Shown in pieces: positions 1 through 7,473 of a stretch of 64,000 bases of DNA (the stretch's first letter is position 1; each line of letters starts with the position of its first letter). Location: the NCBI GenBank assembly GCA_016201505.1, contig JACQCQ010000002.1, forward strand, positions 12,750 through 76,749, written 5' to 3'. Under the pieces are notes generated by a model that saw nothing but the letters and a program-made list of their open reading frames with translations, had not been told where the DNA came from and made no database searches. Source of the stretch: Candidatus Sungiibacteriota bacterium (GTDB lineage Bacteria > Patescibacteriota > Minisyncoccia > Sungbacterales > JACQCQ01). The position numbers and the translations under genes were made by a program.

Positions 1-129
1 CAGGTGGCGTACTCCGGCATCAAGCGGATTTACTTCCGCGATGGCTACTCGCGCACCGATGGCCAAGAAGTCTTGAGAGCCAAAGGAGTTGCCATCATCC
101 GCGTAGATATAGAAAGACCCCGGCGCTGA
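1..129 (+). CDS. 3' fragment of a cytidine/deoxycytidylate deaminase-family protein (5' end cut by window edge)
   Basis: Open frame from position 1 to TGA at 127-129. Translation ...QVAYSGIKRIYFRDGYSRTDGQEVLRAKGVAIIRVDI resembles C-termini of dCMP/CMP deaminases. Converges on the thyA-folA pair, consistent with a dTMP-synthesis cluster. Confidence 0.3.
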   Translation, partial: QVAYSGIKRIYFRDGYSRTDGQEVLRAKGVAIIRVDIERPRR

Positions 130-164
130 TCTCGGTTCATCCGAGTATCAGTGCCGGGGCTGTT

Positions 165-1115
165 TTACTTTTTAGCGGGTTTTGGCCCCATGGGAAATCG
201 CACCCGCTCGTAGTCTTCCTTGGTGGTATCAGGGTCAGCCACGATGATGTGAAAGTGGAAGTGGCGGACGGAGGCGCCTGTCAGCGCCGTCTCACCTGAT
301 CGAGCGCCAGTTGAGTAGGCCTTGAGGCCATAGTGCTTCTTGGCCCACCGGAGCATCTCGAGACGCTCGCCAGTTTCTTCGTCTGTAAGCTCGTCTTCGA
401 ACTCGATGTGGCGGTTCGGGATGGCGAGCAGATGAAGGATTGTGAACTTGTACGGCCAGCGGTTGGTCCCCAACCGCCAGTGCTCGCTTTTCCAAACTGG
501 TTCCATCAACTCACCTTCTATCTGATGATCTGGGCAGAAGTTGCAGACGCCTCGATCGGTGAGCTTCTGCATGATGGCGCGCTGGTCGTCGTAGCGCGTG
601 TTTTCGAAGTTGTAGTTCGCGTTGACTCGCTCGTAGATCTCGAAGCGAGAGCGAATCTCGTTTTCCTCGCTGGCGGGGCAGCTTTCCATGTGAGTCGCTT
701 TCCACGCGGACTTATCCCAGTCGGAGAACTTCACATCGCCTTCGCAGTATGCCTCGACATGCGTGATGTAGAGCTTGTCGGCGCGGGGCAGCGCTTCTCG
801 ATATAACTCCGCGCCGCCGATGATGAAGACTTCATCATTGTTCTGGGTACGGGTGAGCGCCTCCTCGAGTGAGTGCGTTACTTCGCACTCGGAGGTGTAC
901 CCCTGATCACGAGTCACGACGATCGTGCGGCGACCTTCGAGCGGATGCCCGAGGCGCCTCAGGATCGATTCGTGAGTCTTACGACCGACGATGACAGTTT
1001 TTCCCATCGTCAACTGCCTGAAGCGTTTCAAGTCGGAGGAGAGCCTCCAGGGAAGCTCTCCATTTCGACCTATGACGCCGTTCTCGGCGACAGCCGCGAT
1101 GATTGAGATTTTCAT
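165..1115 (-). CDS. folA: Dihydrofolate reductase fused to a C-terminal HIT-like (histidine-triad) domain
   Basis: N-terminal 165 aa (MKISIIAAVAENGVIGRNGELPWRL...GGAELY) is canonical DHFR. C-terminal 150 aa carries the CxxC-type motif (CNFCPDH) and the HxHxHxx triad (HFHFHII) of HIT hydrolases. Start overlaps the thyA stop by 4 nt (ATGA), as in thyA-folA operons. Confidence 0.8.
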   Translation of the reverse strand: MKISIIAAVAENGVIGRNGELPWRLSSDLKRFRQLTMGKTVIVGRKTHESILRRLGHPLEGRRTIVVTRDQGYTSECEVTHSLEEALTRTQNNDEVFIIGGAELYREALPRADKLYITHVEAYCEGDVKFSDWDKSAWKATHMESCPASEENEIRSRFEIYERVNANYNFENTRYDDQRAIMQKLTDRGVCNFCPDHQIEGELMEPVWKSEHWRLGTNRWPYKFTILHLLAIPNRHIEFEDELTDEETGERLEMLRWAKKHYGLKAYSTGARSGETALTGASVRHFHFHIIVADPDTTKEDYERVRFPMGPKPAKK

Positions 1116-2044
1116 ACTGGCGTCTTGATCCTCCTTCGTCCCAGTTGAGCATGGTAGTCCTCGACATGGAAGTGATGTGGCCGGAATGCGAAGAGATCCT
1201 TCACATCTGGATCGAGTGTCACGGTTGGGAGCCGCTGCGGCTCAGTCTCGAGCATGTCGCGGACGTCAGCCCGCTGATCGTTCGGCCCTCCAGCGTAGAT
1301 GTGGGTGTCCGAGGTCTGAAAAACGAGTTCAGTCGCGCGATAGCCGAAGACCTGCGCGAGCATCATAGTGAGAGCCGCGTACTGGATCAGGTTGAAGACA
1401 AGACCAACGGGTGCGTCGGCGCTTCGTTGCCAGTGTAGCAGTGAGAGCTCTCCGTCTTTGGCATCGACGAAGATGTGAACAAGTCCATGACATGGAACAA
1501 CAACGACCTTCTGCTCTTTCCCTTTGCCGCGGCCGATGTATTGCGGGATGAATGGAGTCACGATGTGCGTCCGCAGGTGTGGCAACTCCGCCATTTGCTC
1601 GAGCACGTGTTTCCACTGATCGAATGGCGCGCCGTACATAGTAGGGAACGCTCTCCATGCAGCCCCATACGAGCCAGGTCCGAGGTCACCCGTTTCGAGT
1701 CCGCGCTTCTTGCACTTTTCCTCTGTAACCCAAGGCGCCCACCAGCCACAGCCGAAATTTTTCATCTCGTCGAGGGTGCGCGCCCCATTGAGAAACGCAC
1801 AGAGTTCGGCGATAGCCATTTCGAATTGAGACTTGCCGATTTTTCCCGGGTCAAGAAGGTCCCGTTCCGTGATCACCGGGAATCCATTGGAGAAATCAAA
1901 GCGCATCTCATTGCCGATGATGCGCAGTGCTCCCTCTCCCATTTGGGTTTCGGTCACGAACTTGCCGGACTCGATGATCTTTTGAATCAGGTTTCGGTAC
2001 TGTCGATCGGGCTCGCGATCACCGTAGGACACGTATCTGACCAT
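1112..2044 (-). CDS. thyA: Thymidylate synthase (ThyA type, 310 aa with insertions)
   Basis: Aligns block by block with E. coli ThyA: GNEMRFDFSNGFPVIT, GDLGPGSYGAAWRAFP, the catalytic PCH in VVPCHGLVHIFV, QRSADAPVGLVFNLIQYA and SDTHIY. Confidence 0.9.
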   Translation of the reverse strand: MVRYVSYGDREPDRQYRNLIQKIIESGKFVTETQMGEGALRIIGNEMRFDFSNGFPVITERDLLDPGKIGKSQFEMAIAELCAFLNGARTLDEMKNFGCGWWAPWVTEEKCKKRGLETGDLGPGSYGAAWRAFPTMYGAPFDQWKHVLEQMAELPHLRTHIVTPFIPQYIGRGKGKEQKVVVVPCHGLVHIFVDAKDGELSLLHWQRSADAPVGLVFNLIQYAALTMMLAQVFGYRATELVFQTSDTHIYAGGPNDQRADVRDMLETEPQRLPTVTLDPDVKDLFAFRPHHFHVEDYHAQLGRRRIKTPV

Positions 2045-2207
2045 TCTGTTTTCCCCTTATTCTGTTGGTAGTGAACTAAAACTGTGGTGGCATCGTATCA
2101 ACCGTTGCAGGATGCGTCAATTCGTATATTTTTGCTACAATGCTTACATATTTATTGTATGGAATACGAACCGGTGATTGGGATTGTCCCGATTTGTCAA
2201 TTTTGAA

Positions 2208-2489
2208 ATGCCTTACGTTTATATACTAATTTCTAAGAAAGACAGAAGATATTACGTTGGGTCTACAACTGACTTAGATCTAAGATTAAAAATGCATAAT
2301 TCTGGTACAGTGACCTCAACTCGATTTTATAGACCCTGGCAGCTTTTTTATTCTGAACAATTTGATACATTGGGCGAAGCAGTCAGTCGAGAAAGGAAAA
2401 TTAAATCTTGGAAAAAACGAACCGCCATTGAACGATTAGTAAATGGCATTTCAAAATTTGAAACAAATCGAGGATCCTCGACCGATTAA
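2208..2489 (+). CDS. Small GIY-YIG nuclease-family protein (UPF0213/COG2827-like), copy 1
   Basis: MPYVYILISKKDRRYYVGSTTDLDLRLKMHNSG...SRERKIKSWKK matches the GIY-YIG (YVYIL...YVG.T.DL..RL..HN.G) pattern. ATG at 2208 lies inside a terminal inverted repeat. Confidence 0.75.
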   Translation: MPYVYILISKKDRRYYVGSTTDLDLRLKMHNSGTVTSTRFYRPWQLFYSEQFDTLGEAVSRERKIKSWKKRTAIERLVNGISKFETNRGSSTD

Positions 2490-4979: not shown

Positions 4980-6131
4980 ATGGTTTGGGTGACGATCCTC
5001 ATCGTGGTTTTCGCACTCTTCTCCACTGCATCTGCTGAGCCGCAAGAGGTTCACGCACTCTATCTTCCCGGCAAGTTCCTCTGTAGTCAGGTCGTCGTAG
5101 CGGACGTGAAGTCGCATGTCGAATCGGGCGCGGCTAATGCCGTGGTGATCGATCTCCGCGACAACGGAACTTTTTTCAACCACTGTATGAGTGAGGTTAC
5201 GGGGTGGTTGAAAGATCACAATGTCTATCTCATTGGACGCATCGTGGTCGGGCAGGACTCAATCATCGCTGATGCTCGCCGCGACATGGCGGTTCATGTA
5301 GCCGATCAACAGATCGCGCTCGAGAGAGTTTTGCAGAGTATCGATCGCATGGTTGAGCGAACACCCGAAGTAAAGAAGGCGGCTCTTCTTAAAACAAAGC
5401 TCGAAGCTCTTGACCGCTGGTACGGCGATGGCCGCAAAAAACCACTCTGGTTTTCCGGCGCGCTGGAACGGCATCGCTACTGGCTCGATCCCGCCTCACC
5501 GGATCTCGCGCGTCTTACCTCTGGAGTTGCCGAATGGGCTTCAACCCTCGGATTTGCCGAGATCAACTTGGACTACATTCGCTTCCCGACAGACGGGGAT
5601 ATGCAGAACATGCGCTATCCCTTCTGGAACGGTGAGCAGTCGAAGTACGAGGTGATAGGACGTTTCGCTTCTTCGGTTGTCGAAGACATCAAGCGGCGAG
5701 TTCCGGGGATGAAGGTCTCGGCTGATATCTTCGGGATCGTCTGCGTAAATGGAGCAGAGTCCTCAACAGGCCAGCGGGTGAAAGATTTTACGGTCTTTGA
5801 CTACCTTGCCTGCATGGGATATGCCTCGCACTTTCGTTGCGGCGACTTCGGGTTTTCCGATCCTAACCAGAAGCCCTATGAAGTGACGAAGACCGTTGCT
5901 TTGGGTCTTGCGCGGCATCTCGCCGGCGTGACAAAAAAGCCCTTTATACGTCCCTGGATCGAGGGTTTTACCATTCCCTCGATCTACCAATGCAGCACCT
6001 GGCGGCCGCCGAGTGCCAAGGAACGCTTCCGCCAGCAAATTCGGGCCCTCGCAGAGCACGGCATCAAAAGCTGGATGATCTGGAACACGGCGGATGAACC
6101 AAAGCCTCTCTATGAGAAGATATTTCGGTAG
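4980..6131 (+). CDS. Secreted putative glycoside-hydrolase-like TIM-barrel protein (DUF4015/GHL-like), paralog 1
   Basis: N-terminal signal or TM segment. Shares the motif INLDYIRFPTDGD (IQYDYVRFPSDGD in the paralog) and overall colinearity with the next gene. The family assignment is from memory of DUF4015-type proteins. Confidence 0.4.
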   Translation: MVWVTILIVVFALFSTASAEPQEVHALYLPGKFLCSQVVVADVKSHVESGAANAVVIDLRDNGTFFNHCMSEVTGWLKDHNVYLIGRIVVGQDSIIADARRDMAVHVADQQIALERVLQSIDRMVERTPEVKKAALLKTKLEALDRWYGDGRKKPLWFSGALERHRYWLDPASPDLARLTSGVAEWASTLGFAEINLDYIRFPTDGDMQNMRYPFWNGEQSKYEVIGRFASSVVEDIKRRVPGMKVSADIFGIVCVNGAESSTGQRVKDFTVFDYLACMGYASHFRCGDFGFSDPNQKPYEVTKTVALGLARHLAGVTKKPFIRPWIEGFTIPSIYQCSTWRPPSAKERFRQQIRALAEHGIKSWMIWNTADEPKPLYEKIFR

Positions 6132-6222: not shown

Positions 6223-7473
6223 ATGCAGAAAAAGATTGCCATTTCGATTCTAATGCTCGCCGTTCTCTTCGGCGGCTATTTAATTTTTGAACTGGTCCGT
6301 CCGCCGGCAGAGCTGATTTTGCAGGGCGGGCCTAAAAAAAATCAAAATCAACCAAGCTCACAAAAAACTCTAAAGGAACGGATCCGGGACGCCGCCATGC
6401 GCTCGCAGAATGTGAAGGGCGTCTATGTGACAGCCGCGGTGGCGAACGATCAGGGCCGTCCGGCGACGAATCTGCGCAACTCAATTCTCGAAATTCTTAG
6501 CACGACAGAAATTAACGCCGTGGTGATTGACGTAAAAGAAACTCCCGGCGGTCAAATCACCGATCATTTAAAACCCTTTGTGGATGAATTAAAATCGCGC
6601 GGCGTCTGGACCATCGCGCGCATGGCGACGTTTCGCGATAATTCGCAAGTCACGGCGCATCCCGATTATTATGTAAAACGGCCTGATGGCGGCATCTGGC
6701 GCGACAATAAAGGCAACGCCTGGCTGGATCCGATGAGCGAAGGGACACGCGCCTACATGCTCTCATTCGCTAAAAATGTGGCCGACATCGGGTTTGATGA
6801 GATTCAATATGATTATGTTCGTTTTCCTTCTGATGGCGACACCCGAGACATCGTTTACCCCGCGTATCAGGCGAGTAGTATGCCGAAGTACCTGGCCATC
6901 AAAGATTATTTGTCTTTCATACATGACAATCTAAAAGCCTATAAACCTGAATTGATTCTCTCCGCTGATTTATTTGGCTATGTCGCCACCGAAACAGAAG
7001 ATCTAGGCATCGGCCAGCGGCTGATTGATGTGGCTTCGAATGTTGATTTTATTTCTTTGATGCTCTATCCCAGTCATTTTTATGCTGGCTTTGATGTTCC
7101 GGCTGATTCATTGAGAAATTTAGCTGCCGCCTCGTTGCCCTACCGGGGCGCCAGTACGACCTCGCTCGTTTCAGCCAATCCGTATGCCGTTGTCTATCAC
7201 TCATTGCTGGTGGCGCATGATGCCCTGCTCGGCCGCGTGCCGCATGGCACGACGACGCCGAACCCCGCTATTGTAAATGAAAATCCAGCCGTAAAATTCC
7301 GTCCCTGGCTGCAGGATTTTGATCTCGGCGTTGATACTTCAAGAGGGATTTATTATGATGCCAAAGCCGTGAGAGCCCAGATTGACGCCGCCGAGCATGC
7401 CGGCGCCTCCGGCTGGCTTTTGTGGAGCCCGACGAATACCTACACTGAAGCCGCGTTAAGGCCGAAGTCGTGA
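6223..7473 (+). CDS. Secreted putative glycoside-hydrolase-like TIM-barrel protein (DUF4015/GHL-like), paralog 2
   Basis: N-terminal TM or signal (MQKKIAISILMLAVLFGGYLIF). Motifs YDYVRFPSDGD and ...GWLLWSPTNTY are shared with the paralog. Confidence 0.4.
   Translation: MQKKIAISILMLAVLFGGYLIFELVRPPAELILQGGPKKNQNQPSSQKTLKERIRDAAMRSQNVKGVYVTAAVANDQGRPATNLRNSILEILSTTEINAVVIDVKETPGGQITDHLKPFVDELKSRGVWTIARMATFRDNSQVTAHPDYYVKRPDGGIWRDNKGNAWLDPMSEGTRAYMLSFAKNVADIGFDEIQYDYVRFPSDGDTRDIVYPAYQASSMPKYLAIKDYLSFIHDNLKAYKPELILSADLFGYVATETEDLGIGQRLIDVASNVDFISLMLYPSHFYAGFDVPADSLRNLAAASLPYRGASTTSLVSANPYAVVYHSLLVAHDALLGRVPHGTTTPNPAIVNENPAVKFRPWLQDFDLGVDTSRGIYYDAKAVRAQIDAAEHAGASGWLLWSPTNTYTEAALRPKS

What the first reader, a model, noticed from the sequence alone, without database searches (positions are those of the whole stretch)
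165..1115. DHFR fused in one reading frame to a HIT-family (histidine triad) domain
Residues 1 to about 165 are a normal FolA. Residues about 170-316 carry CNFC...HFHFHII, the zinc-binding CxxC and HxHxHxx motifs of HIT nucleotide hydrolases/transferases. I am not aware of a described DHFR-HIT fusion. It could couple folate reduction to a nucleotide-hydrolysing (Ap4A/AMP-X) activity, or it could be a domain-shuffling accident inside an acquired thyA-folA cassette.
Basis: partly seen in the sequence, partly recalled or inferred. Interest (0 to 1): 0.55.

Follow-up and report, generated by a model that had tools for sequence, protein, structure and literature searches.

The report
DHFR fused to thymidylate-linked HIT enzyme
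This is a real, evolutionarily conserved two-enzyme protein of ultra-small (CPR/Patescibacteria) bacteria, in which dihydrofolate reductase is joined to a histidine-triad nucleotide enzyme that always travels with the thymidylate-synthesis genes, pointing to an undescribed step in how these bacteria make the DNA building block dTMP.

Summary
Window 165-1115 (minus strand) encodes one 316-aa protein. Residues 1-164 are a complete FolA-type DHFR. Residues 165-316 are a HIT domain with CNFC (191-194) and HFHFHII (285-291).

It is not a frameshift or a one-off. At least 80 DHFR-HIT fusions exist in Patescibacteria (Sungbacteria, Ryanbacteria, Kerfeldbacteria, Saccharibacteria), with a variable linker and invariant catalytic and zinc-site residues.

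The HIT domain belongs to a subfamily seen here only in Patescibacteria (549 clusters at 50% identity). In 7 of 7 stand-alone cases examined it sits directly after thyA (once after thyA-folA). It is always followed by a convergent pair: cytidylyltransferase, then a long dCMP deaminase. Unfused thyA-folA-HIT arrangements, a HIT-ThyA fusion and a tandem HIT-HIT also exist.

So the HIT enzyme is a fixed part of a thymidylate module, and the fusion formed from neighbouring genes. Its substrate is unknown. My best guess is that it cleaves a deoxypyrimidine-NMP conjugate made by the neighbouring cytidylyltransferase, feeding dCMP/dUMP to the deaminase and ThyA.

The "accident in an acquired cassette" reading is not supported. 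No paper describing this fusion was found. It is a new variant of known kinds, of moderate to high interest.

The parts
165..1115 (-). folA-HIT gene: one ORF of 316 codons plus stop, encoding the DHFR-HIT fusion protein
   Evidence: ORF list. Exact match to NCBI 'MAG: dihydrofolate reductase [Candidatus Sungbacteria bacterium]'. Full-length AF2 model has pLDDT 94.0 and pTM 0.73.
624..1115 (-). DHFR domain (residues 1-164)
   Evidence: Pfam DHFR_1 E=1.7e-53 over the whole profile. 39% identity to E. coli FolA end to end, E=1e-38, with D27->D28, W22->W23, the GRxT loop, the GG motif (100-101), Y105 and T118 aligned. These are invariant or nearly invariant in 44 fused homologues.
168..623 (-). 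HIT domain (residues 165-316): N-terminal helix, HIT core and conserved C-terminal tail (V305-R-F307-x-x-G310)
   Evidence: Pfam HIT and DcpS_C. Profile against PDB E=1.7e-10. AF2 pLDDT 95.2. Foldseek to Hint, Fhit and Rv2613c at probability 1.00. 549 related clusters in the exhaustive scan.
534..545 (-). C191-N-F-C194: the CxxC half of the predicted zinc site
   Evidence: Both Cys are present in 79/79 fused and 110/111 stand-alone relatives. The motif aligns to the CxFC of solved zinc-type HIT proteins.
408..410 (-). H236 (the 'RH' of IPNRH), a predicted zinc ligand
   Evidence: Present in 79/79 fused and 109/111 stand-alone relatives. The role is inferred from zinc-type HIT proteins (my knowledge), not tested.
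243..263 (-). Histidine triad H285-F-H287-F-H289-I-I. H287 is the predicted nucleophile.
   Evidence: H285 and H287 are in all fused relatives. Position 289 is H in about 80% and Q in about 20% of the family. The motif aligns to HxHxH of Hint proteins.
1112..2044 (-). thyA (310 aa), immediately upstream. Its stop overlaps the folA-HIT start by 4 nt (ATGA, 1112-1115), which suggests translational coupling.
   Evidence: Pfam Thymidylat_synt E=5.7e-55. TIGR03284 at 148.9 bits, above the 108.35 cut-off. Coordinates. The PCH catalytic Cys and the 'FN' Asn typical of dUMP-specific enzymes are read from the translation.
1..129 (+). 3' end (last 42 codons) of the convergent long dCMP deaminase gene (286 aa). 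The rest of it, and the cytidylyltransferase gene, lie beyond the left edge of the window.
   Evidence: The independent contig L008 carries the same sequence and continues: dCMP deaminase 286 aa, CTP_transf_like 197 aa, then L11, SecE, NusG.
130..164 (.). 35-nt spacer between the two convergent stop codons, with a small hairpin ctcgg-ttcat-ccgag at 131-145
   Evidence: Read directly. The terminator scan did not call it because there is no T-run. Function is not established.
2092..2120 (-). Sigma-70-like promoter match upstream of thyA (TTGACG-17-TACGAT)
   Evidence: It is the only match in the region, and the count is no higher than in shuffled sequence, so this is weak evidence.

Best explanation
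SHOWN:
- The gene encodes a genuine bifunctional protein.
- The N-terminal half is a complete FolA-type DHFR. It regenerates tetrahydrofolate from the dihydrofolate made by ThyA, whose gene overlaps it by 4 nt.
- The C-terminal half is a HIT-superfamily domain. It keeps the full catalytic histidine network (H228, H285, H287, H289) and a four-residue Cys2His2 site (C191, C194, H236, H285).
- This HIT domain belongs to a subfamily found here only in Patescibacteria. It is a constant member of a thymidylate gene module: thyA -> [folA] -> HIT, convergent with cytidylyltransferase -> long dCMP deaminase.
- The fusion arose from neighbouring genes. All stages are found: thyA-HIT with folA elsewhere in the cluster; thyA-folA-HIT as separate adjacent genes; and thyA-(folA-HIT) fused. 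A different lineage fused the same HIT to ThyA.

INFERRED:
- The HIT domain is catalytically active. H287 attacks the alpha-phosphate of a nucleoside-5'-monophosphate conjugate (NMP-X), forms a covalent NMP-histidine intermediate, and releases NMP to water or transfers it to phosphate or another acceptor.
- Because of its fixed partners, the substrate is most likely a (deoxy)pyrimidine nucleotide conjugate. The leading candidate is the (d)CMP-phospho-X product of the neighbouring cytidylyltransferase. Together the two enzymes would convert (d)CTP into the monophosphate that the deaminase and ThyA need.
- The HIT enzyme probably sits physically with ThyA and DHFR.

The substrate and the choice between hydrolase and phosphorylase/transferase chemistry are not established.
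For: Real fusion under selection:
- 80 proteins in hand carry both domains, 276-346 aa.
- 44 of them, aligned at 35-61% identity, keep 27 invariant columns spread over both halves.
- The linker varies from about 2 to 20 residues with no stops.
- 39 of the top 150 representative clusters are of fusion size.

HIT identity.

Catalytic and zinc residues: conserved at 97-100% in both fused and stand-alone forms.

DHFR intact.

Module:
- In 24 loci from Sungbacteria, Kerfeldbacteria, Kaiserbacteria, Paceibacteria, Saccharibacteria, WWE3 and unnamed bins, HIT (fused or not) follows thyA or thyA-folA.
- Wherever flank exists, it is followed by the convergent cytidylyltransferase and long dCMP deaminase pair.
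- SHMT, dUTPase or MazG, Tmk and stand-alone folA are often nearby.

Other architectures:
- Unfused adjacent thyA-folA-HIT in L002, L019, L020 and L024.
- HIT-ThyA fusion P0135, also present as NCBI HRH31222.1, in two assemblies.
- Tandem HIT-HIT (P0208) on 19 contigs.

Composition: the four module genes share GC 0.56-0.58 and GC3 0.65-0.72, against 0.489+-0.031 and 0.528+-0.05 for 28 other window genes. The DHFR and HIT halves are identical in composition.

Neighbour: a bona fide cytidylyltransferase-class enzyme, with invariant HxGH and TSTTxxIR, and E=3e-31 to ethanolamine-phosphate cytidylyltransferase. It would make exactly the kind of NMP-phospho-X bond that HIT enzymes break (established HIT chemistry, my knowledge).
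Against: - No biochemical data exist for any member.
- The HIT subfamily cannot be placed in a characterised branch. It lacks the Gln of the Hint/Fhit 'GGQ/AGQ' element (A281 here) and has Arg272 where Hint has Asn (alignments). So neither substrate nor reaction type can be transferred by homology.
- Several clusters also encode dUTPase or MazG. A simple dUTP/dCTP-to-monophosphate role would therefore be partly redundant.
- Synteny and fusion show functional linkage but not which reaction.
- The cytidylyltransferase-HIT 'make and break' link is my inference from chemistry and co-location only.
- Whether the fusion arose once or several times is unresolved.
Confidence: 0.6

Rival explanations
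1. The HIT domain is mainly a non-catalytic dimerisation or scaffolding module. HIT proteins are obligate dimers, as is ThyA. The domain would hold DHFR on ThyA, making a CPR analogue of the bifunctional DHFR-TS channelling complex.
For: The same HIT is fused to DHFR in some lineages and to ThyA in another. thyA and the fusion gene overlap by 4 nt. A tandem HIT-HIT with a degenerate second copy exists. The full-length model is compact, pTM 0.73.
Against: The nucleophile His287, His285, His228 and the CxxC are 97-100% conserved in about 190 sequences at about 30% mean identity. That level of conservation is hard to explain without catalysis. The stand-alone form is the majority. Scaffolding and catalysis are not mutually exclusive.
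Confidence: 0.12
2. The HIT domain is an ordinary housekeeping Hint-like phosphoramidase or acyl-adenylate hydrolase with no role in thymidylate synthesis. On this view the linkage reflects operon hitch-hiking in tiny genomes.
For: The closest solved relatives are generic Hint-type proteins. JGI labels members 'Ap4A HIT family hydrolase' or 'ATP adenylyltransferase'. The physiological roles of HIT proteins are generally obscure.
Against: The position directly after thyA (or thyA-folA) held in 7 of 7 stand-alone look-ups and in all fused loci, across distant CPR classes, while the surrounding genes vary. There are two different fusions to thymidylate-cycle enzymes. The four-gene module has a shared composition. 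The family has its own conserved N-terminal helix (R174, Q178, M182) and C-terminal tail, which are absent from Hint.
Confidence: 0.15
3. The cytidylyltransferase and the HIT enzyme form a reversible protein-nucleotidylation switch (writer and eraser) that regulates ThyA, DHFR or the deaminase. This would be analogous to hinT bound to AMPylated GlnA.
For: A solved complex of hinT with AMPylated GlnA appears among the fold matches (8v1y). A nucleotidyltransferase and a HIT enzyme are always co-located.
Against: The neighbour belongs to the small-molecule CDP-alcohol cytidylyltransferase class, which to my knowledge is not known to modify proteins. There is no evidence of a modified residue.
Confidence: 0.05
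4. The fusion is a recent domain-shuffling accident inside a horizontally acquired thyA-folA cassette, or a frameshift or assembly artefact that joins two genes.
For: The thyA and folA-HIT genes are 2.3-2.5 SD richer in GC, and 2.4-3.8 SD richer in GC3, than other genes of the window. In some relatives folA and HIT are separate overlapping genes that a 1-nt indel could join.
Against: At least 80 fused homologues exist in many assemblies and sources. The identical protein appears in two assemblies. The DHFR and HIT halves have the same composition, and the GC shift extends to the whole four-gene module. Its position next to L11-NusG-SecE is conserved across Patescibacteria. No relatives were found in phage or viral collections. 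A block replacement of the module from another CPR lineage remains possible, but that is not a shuffling accident.
Confidence: 0.03

Closest known systems
Bifunctional DHFR-TS of protozoa and plants
   Same: DHFR is physically tied to the thymidylate cycle through gene fusion. Here folA also overlaps thyA by 4 nt, and a sister lineage fuses HIT to ThyA.
   Different: The fusion partner of DHFR is a HIT nucleotide enzyme, not thymidylate synthase. ThyA remains a separate polypeptide in this genome.
Nit-Fhit 'Rosetta stone' fusion of worms and flies (PDB 1EMS)
   Same: A HIT-superfamily enzyme is fused to a metabolically distinct enzyme, and separate genes exist in other lineages. 1ems is among the profile hits (E=3.4e-7).
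   Different: The partner here is DHFR or ThyA, not a nitrilase. The HIT is on the C-terminal side of DHFR. It is a bacterial (CPR) zinc-CxxC type rather than the Fhit branch. The linkage is also supported by a conserved gene neighbourhood.
Zinc-type Hint-branch HIT proteins (E. histolytica 3OJ7/3OMF, E. cuniculi 3R6F, B. subtilis Hit 1Y23)
   Same: These are the best sequence and fold matches (E=1.7e-10; Foldseek E about 1e-6, TM to target 0.65-0.71). They share the N-terminal CxxC, the 'H-x-L-x-I-P-x-x-H' element and the HxHxHxx triad.
   Different: Only 17-28% identical. The family has Arg272 where Hint has Asn and Ala281 where Hint and Fhit have Gln. About 20% of members have HxHxQ. It carries an extra conserved N-terminal helix and a C-terminal tail. 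No NCBIfam model matches it.
Ap4A phosphorylase Rv2613c / 'ATP adenylyltransferase' (PDB 3ANO, 6AF2)
   Same: A HIT fold with an HxHxH triad that also lacks the Hint/Fhit Gln: Ser in 6af2 aligns with A281. JGI assigns this name to several stand-alone members.
   Different: The match is weaker than to Hint-type proteins (E=1.8e-5 and 1.3e-6). No CxxC is aligned. There is no evidence here for Ap4A as substrate.
Bifunctional dCTP deaminase-dUTPase (DCD-DUT) of archaea and mycobacteria (my knowledge)
   Same: It would share the net reaction (dCTP -> dUMP + PPi + NH3, without free dUTP) if the cytidylyltransferase, long deaminase and HIT act in series.
   Different: The proteins are entirely unrelated and there are three enzymes instead of one. 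This is a functional analogy proposed by inference only.

Membership tests
FolA-type dihydrofolate reductase (PF00186) | Profile match above the curated threshold, over the whole domain | tested here: met
   181 bits against a cut-off of 25, profile positions 1-159 of 159.
FolA-type dihydrofolate reductase (PF00186) | Catalytic Asp (E. coli D27), W22, the NADPH-binding G-R-x-T and GG motifs, Y100 and T113 | tested here: met
   Aligned as D28, W23, G44-R45-K46-T47, G100-G101, Y105 and T118. D28, G44, T47, G100, G101 and T118 are invariant; W23, R45, K46 and Y105 are at least 90% conserved in 44 fused homologues.
FolA-type dihydrofolate reductase (PF00186) | NADPH-dependent reduction of dihydrofolate | not testable with these tools
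   CPR folA genes (not shown to be fused forms) complement E. coli delta-folA in PMC11974145.
HIT superfamily (PF01230 / clan HIT) | Profile match above the curated threshold | tested here: met
   22.4 bits (24.1 for the domain alone) against a cut-off of 21.5, which is marginal. However, 72 of 85 family members match, best E=9e-11. The family profile against PDB HIT proteins gives E=1.7e-10.
HIT superfamily (PF01230 / clan HIT) | Histidine triad H-phi-H-phi-H-phi-phi near the C-terminus of the core | tested here: met
   H285-F-H-F-H-I-I291. H285 and H287 are in 79/79 fused relatives; position 289 is H (about 80%) or Q (about 20%).
HIT superfamily (PF01230 / clan HIT) | Alpha+beta HIT fold | tested here: met
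   AF2 pLDDT 95.2, pTM 0.88. Foldseek probability 1.00 to Hint, Fhit and Rv2613c; 113 PDB hits at E<=1e-3. This is a prediction, not a solved structure.
HIT superfamily (PF01230 / clan HIT) | Nucleotide alpha-phosphate hydrolase or transferase activity through a His-NMP intermediate | not testable with these tools
   Needs an enzyme assay and an H287 mutant.
Hint branch (nucleoside phosphoramidases) | Conserved Gln of the G-G-Q-x-V-x-H element and the Asn (hHint1 N99) contacting the alpha-phosphate | tested here: not met
   Alignments put A281 at the Gln position and the invariant R272 at the Asn position. I therefore do not file it as a Hint orthologue.
GalT branch / HIT phosphorylases-transferases | HxHxQ motif and a duplicated half-barrel in one chain | tested here: not met
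   The window protein has HxHxH and a single HIT domain. About 20% of the family have HxHxQ, and one tandem HIT-HIT member exists. GalT hits cover only part of the profile.
Zinc-binding HIT subgroup (CxxC type) | N-terminal CxxC, plus His of 'P-x-x-H' and the first triad His as metal ligands | tested here: inconclusive
   All four residues are present and 98-100% conserved, and the CxxC aligns to the CxFC of zinc-type HIT proteins. Metal binding itself is not testable here.
Bifunctional DHFR-TS | DHFR and thymidylate synthase in one polypeptide | tested here: not met
   ThyA is a separate ORF, 1112-2044, overlapping by 4 nt.

The most novel reading that the evidence does not exclude
The four-gene module encodes a previously unknown, carrier-linked route to dUMP:
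1. The cytidylyltransferase loads (d)CMP from (d)CTP onto a phosphorylated carrier X, giving (d)CDP-X.
2. The long dCMP deaminase, whose unexplained 140-aa N-terminal domain would recognise the carrier, deaminates the conjugate to dUDP-X.
3. The HIT domain releases dUMP directly next to ThyA and DHFR, recycling X-P.

The net reaction would be dCTP -> dUMP + PPi + NH3 without free dUTP. That is a non-homologous functional equivalent of the bifunctional dCTP deaminase-dUTPase, organised as a ThyA/DHFR-HIT complex.
Probability: 0.1. Interest if true: 0.85.

Novelty: new variant of a known kind. Interest (0 to 1): 0.6.

Why it matters
- HIT proteins are ubiquitous, but their physiological substrates are mostly unknown. 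Here a whole HIT subfamily is tied to one pathway by three independent lines: a conserved neighbourhood, a fusion to DHFR and a fusion to ThyA. That turns 'what does this HIT do?' into a directly testable question.
- CPR/Patescibacteria lack most nucleotide biosynthesis yet retain this module (PMC11974145 reports folate-cycle genes in 90.8% of 4,581 CPR genomes). An extra, conserved enzyme pair (cytidylyltransferase and HIT) plus a deaminase with a novel domain suggests their route to dTMP differs from textbook pathways.
- Practically, these proteins are currently annotated only as 'dihydrofolate reductase', 'thymidylate synthase' or 'hypothetical', so the second activity is invisible in metabolic reconstructions.

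Tried and rejected
1. The word-indexed homologue search with the C-terminal 152 aa alone found nothing, although relatives at 59-61% full-length identity exist. The exhaustive scan showed this was a limit of tool sensitivity.
2. The search for related loci with the broad alignment A2 failed because no stretch was conserved enough. The tighter alignment A3 gave only 2 genome loci and 8 metagenome loci.
4. An NJ tree of 191 HIT domains interleaves fused and stand-alone forms in 103 blocks. With about 150 aligned columns at about 30% identity this is unresolved, so I draw no conclusion on single versus multiple origins of the fusion.
5. The N-terminal domain of the long dCMP deaminase has no Pfam or PDB match. 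My hunch that its 'VLHxGY' is a degenerate HxGH nucleotidyltransferase motif got hhalign probability 1.9%, so it is not supported.
6. Phage origin: no relatives in IMG/VR or GenBank phages.
7. Literature: five searches found no description of a DHFR-HIT fusion or a HIT-thymidylate link. The library lacks most subscription journals, so absence is not proof.
8. Promoter and terminator scans gave counts no higher than in shuffled sequence.
9. A simple dUTPase-replacement role for HIT was considered and down-weighted, because Dut or MazG is present in several of the same clusters.
Full report
**1. The observation**

Window 165-1115 holds one uninterrupted ORF on the minus strand, 316 codons starting at ATG.
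- Pfam places DHFR_1 on residues 2-163, covering the whole profile at E=1.7e-53.
- Pfam places HIT (PF01230) on residues 227-294 at 22.4 bits, just over the gathering score of 21.5. DcpS_C, from the same clan, scores 22.2 bits.
CNFC is residues 191-194 (nt 534-545) and HFHFHII is residues 285-291 (nt 243-263), both read.
- The DHFR half aligns with E. coli FolA from end to end (39% identity, E=1e-38).

**2. The HIT assignment is solid**

On a single sequence it looks marginal: phmmer against PDB gives E=0.0055. The family view removes the doubt.
- An exhaustive HMMER scan with the C-terminal 152 residues found 549 clusters (at 50% identity) with E<=1e-3, and 226 with E<=1e-10.
- A profile of 85 stand-alone relatives (alignment A2) hits solved HIT proteins at E=1.7e-10 (3oj7) and about 60 further HIT, Fhit, GalT, aprataxin and Ap4A-phosphorylase chains. 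The CxxC aligns to the Hint 'CxFC' and the triads align to each other.
- 72 of the 85 members match PF01230 individually.
- The AlphaFold2 model of the domain is confident (pLDDT 95.2, pTM 0.88). Foldseek matches Hint, Fhit and Rv2613c structures at probability 1.00.

Conserved in both fused and stand-alone members:
- R174, Q178 and M182, in an extra N-terminal helix.
- C191-x-F-C194, W213, N218-x-x-P-Y222, H228, H236, R272-x-G274 and G280.
- H285-x-H287-x-[H about 80% / Q about 20%].

The four residues that would make a Cys2His2 zinc site by analogy with zinc-type HIT proteins (C191, C194, H236, H285) are 98-100% conserved. The metal-binding role is inferred.

The family departs from the Hint and Fhit consensus in two ways:
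- Arg272 stands where Hint has the phosphate-contacting Asn.
- Ala281 stands where Hint and Fhit have Gln. The phosphorylase-type chain 6af2 has Ser at that position.

Together with the H/Q alternation at the third triad position, and JGI's mixed labels 'Ap4A HIT family hydrolase' and 'ATP adenylyltransferase', this leaves hydrolase versus phosphorylase/transferase chemistry open. No NCBIfam model covers the family.

**3. The fusion is real, old and selected**
- A full-length search returned the identical protein from an NCBI MAG ('dihydrofolate reductase [Candidatus Sungbacteria bacterium]', 211-kb contig). It also returned about 45 full-length relatives of 312-345 aa at 35-61% identity and 92-100% coverage, named as Sungbacteria, Ryanbacteria, Kerfeldbacteria and Parcubacteria.
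- Adding the exhaustive scan, 80 sequences in hand carry both domains and 111 carry HIT only.
- 39 of the top 150 representative clusters are of fusion size.
- In an alignment of 44 fusions, 27 columns spread over both halves are invariant. The linker between the last DHFR strand and the HIT N-terminal helix varies from about 2 to 20 residues. That is the signature of a true inter-domain linker.
- The full-length model has pLDDT 94.0 and pTM 0.73.
- The same protein is encoded on an independently assembled Logan contig.

A frameshift artefact is therefore excluded for practical purposes.

**4. Genomic context is the main new finding**

In this genome:
- thyA (1112-2044) overlaps the fusion gene by 4 nt (ATGA).
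- Beyond the left edge of the window, contig L008 shows a convergent operon of a 197-aa CTP_transf_like protein and a 286-aa dCMP deaminase. The last 42 codons of that deaminase are window 1-129. L11, SecE and NusG follow.

In relatives:
- The same arrangement recurs in fused relatives from distant lineages: L003 (Kerfeldbacteria), L005, L006, L001 (labelled Saccharibacteria) and L014-L018.
- All seven stand-alone HIT genes I looked up lie directly after thyA (in L024, after thyA-folA). All are followed by the same convergent cytidylyltransferase and long-deaminase pair.
- In those loci a separate folA lies elsewhere in the cluster in five of the seven (L009-L012, L022), directly between thyA and HIT in L024, and is not in view in L023. 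SHMT, dUTPase or MazG, thymidylate kinase and a CofE-like ligase lie nearby in several.
- Intermediate states exist. thyA, folA and HIT are adjacent but separate genes in L002 (WWE3), L019 and L020, where the stop and start regions overlap in different frames. In L024 there is a 71-nt spacer.
- P0135 (464 aa) is HIT (14-154) joined to ThyA (173-464). The same protein is NCBI HRH31222.1 from a Paceibacterota MAG, so it is seen in two assemblies.
- P0208 is a tandem HIT-HIT found on 19 contigs.
- A more distant HIT paralogue (170-200 aa; CxxC kept; triad HxHx[N/H]) follows the HIT gene in four clusters.

Every named source is a Patescibacteria lineage. No relatives were found in viral or phage collections.

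**5. Composition**

| Genes | GC | GC3 |
|---|---|---|
| thyA, folA-HIT, dCMP deaminase, cytidylyltransferase | 0.56-0.58 | 0.65-0.72 |
| 28 other window genes | 0.489+-0.031 | 0.528+-0.05 |
| L11 (immediate neighbour) | 0.505 | 0.542 |

- The DHFR and HIT halves are indistinguishable (GC3 0.72 for both).
- The four genes therefore behave as one unit. That fits either strong codon bias or replacement of the whole module from another CPR lineage. It argues against a recent domain-shuffling event.
- Because the module's position next to L11-NusG-SecE is conserved across Patescibacteria, 'acquired cassette' in the usual sense is not supported.

**6. How it most likely works**

Shown:
- A complete DHFR and a HIT domain with intact catalytic and metal-site residues sit in one chain.
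- The gene is translationally linked to ThyA.
- The HIT subfamily is a fixed component of a thymidylate module.

Established knowledge:
- ThyA converts dUMP and CH2-THF to dTMP and DHF. DHFR recycles DHF. dCMP deaminase supplies dUMP.
- HIT enzymes attack the alpha-phosphate of NMP-X with the middle histidine and release NMP to water, phosphate or another acceptor.
- Cytidylyltransferases of the ECT/GCT/CCT class make CMP-phospho-X from CTP.

The neighbour here is of that class. HxGH and TSTTxxIR are invariant, and it scores E=3e-31 to ethanolamine-phosphate cytidylyltransferase. Its best NCBIfam hit, rfaE domain II, is below cut-off.

Inference:
- The HIT domain is an active enzyme working on a (deoxy)pyrimidine NMP conjugate, most plausibly the product of the neighbouring cytidylyltransferase. 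The pair would convert (d)CTP into the monophosphate level needed by the deaminase and ThyA.
- Fusions to DHFR and to ThyA suggest the three proteins act as a physical complex.
- I give about 0.6 to the general statement (a catalytic, thymidylate-linked HIT) and about 0.3 to the specific cytidylyltransferase-HIT pairing.
- The boldest reading is a carrier-linked dCTP -> dCDP-X -> dUDP-X -> dUMP route. In it, the deaminase's unexplained N-terminal domain recognises the carrier. It is not excluded, but I give it only about 0.1.

**7. Rivals**
- Scaffold-only HIT domain: disfavoured by near-absolute conservation of the catalytic histidines.
- Unrelated housekeeping Hint: disfavoured by 24 of 24 syntenic loci and by two kinds of fusion.
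- Writer/eraser nucleotidylation switch: no support beyond analogy with hinT-GlnA (8v1y).
- Artefact or accident: refuted, as above.

**8. Comparison with the known**
- It works like a HIT nucleotide hydrolase or transferase and is a member of the HIT superfamily.
- It fails the tests for the Hint branch (no Gln, no Asn) and for the GalT branch (a single domain; HxHxH in this protein). I therefore file it only at superfamily level, as a distinct subfamily seen here only in Patescibacteria.
- As an architecture, its nearest parallels are DHFR-TS and the Nit-Fhit Rosetta-stone protein.
- I found no publication describing DHFR-HIT, HIT-ThyA or a HIT-thymidylate link.
- The one paper that studied CPR folA genes experimentally (PMC11974145) does not mention a second domain.
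- Some database entries do carry both Pfam labels, so the architecture is recorded but uninterpreted.

**9. Verdict**
- The fusion interpretation is supported, and the 'accident' alternative is rejected.
- Novelty: a new variant of known kinds, meaning a new conserved domain architecture plus a newly recognised pathway association of a HIT subfamily.
- Interest: 0.6. It gives a concrete, testable handle on an obscure enzyme superfamily and on how CPR bacteria make thymidylate. The substrate is still unknown.

Noticed in passing
window 1-129 (+) and L008:3454-4314 (-): The convergent dCMP deaminase is about twice the normal length (275-293 aa in all 20+ loci). It carries a conserved ~140-aa N-terminal domain (invariant P10, H13, G15, Y16, R48, P89, F115-L-R117; motif AYVPVLHxGY) that matches no Pfam family and no solved structure. 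A suspected relation to HxGH nucleotidyltransferases was not supported (hhalign probability 1.9%).
   Followed up: partly
L008:4316-4909 (-), just beyond the left edge of the window: A cytidylyltransferase-class gene (invariant HxGH and TSTTxxIR) is always co-directional with the long dCMP deaminase and abuts or overlaps it by a few nt. This partnership is unexplained. Its closest solved relatives are ethanolamine-phosphate and glycerol-3-phosphate cytidylyltransferases.
   Followed up: partly
L005:6020-6532, L009:5508-6080, L010:5533-6075, L011:5535-6143: A second, distant HIT paralogue (170-200 aa; CxxC kept; triad HxHxN or HxHxH; longer C-terminal helix) follows the HIT gene in some clusters. 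This hints at a hetero-dimeric HIT pair, and a tandem HIT-HIT fusion (P0208) also exists. It is absent from this window's genome.
   Followed up: partly
L021:87-1481 (P0135; also NCBI HRH31222.1): A HIT-ThyA fusion protein (464 aa, triad HLHGQ) in a Paceibacterota MAG, annotated only as 'thymidylate synthase'.
   Followed up: partly
window 2178-2489 (+): A 103-aa GIY-YIG nuclease-domain ORF (Pfam E=6.9e-18) lies in a 39% GC island between thyA and gatB. It may be a small mobile or homing-endonuclease-like gene at the edge of the GC-rich thymidylate module.
   Followed up: no
L009:1843-2583 and L012:7370-8134: A CofE-like gene in relatives' thymidylate clusters best matches TIGR04132, 'putative folate metabolism gamma-glutamate ligase' (241 bits, below the cut-off of 350). 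It may polyglutamylate salvaged folate in CPR bacteria.
   Followed up: no
window 1-2044 plus L008:3454-4909: The four module genes are compositionally distinct from the rest of the genome (GC3 0.65-0.72 against 0.53+-0.05), while the adjacent L11 gene is not. The cause could be codon bias or block replacement from another CPR lineage.
   Followed up: partly
window 130-164: The 35-nt spacer between the convergent stops of folA-HIT and the dCMP deaminase holds a short hairpin, ctcgg-ttcat-ccgag (131-145), with no T-run. It may be a bidirectional terminator or an RNA-stability element.
   Followed up: no
window 4980-6131 and 6223-7473 (+): Two adjacent paralogous DUF4015 (putative glycosyl hydrolase) genes.
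   Followed up: no
L008:5460-5834 (-): A gene with the 23S_rRNA_IVP Pfam domain (36% GC) is inserted between L11 and SecE in this genome. This interrupts the L11-NusG-SecE order seen in relatives.
   Followed up: no
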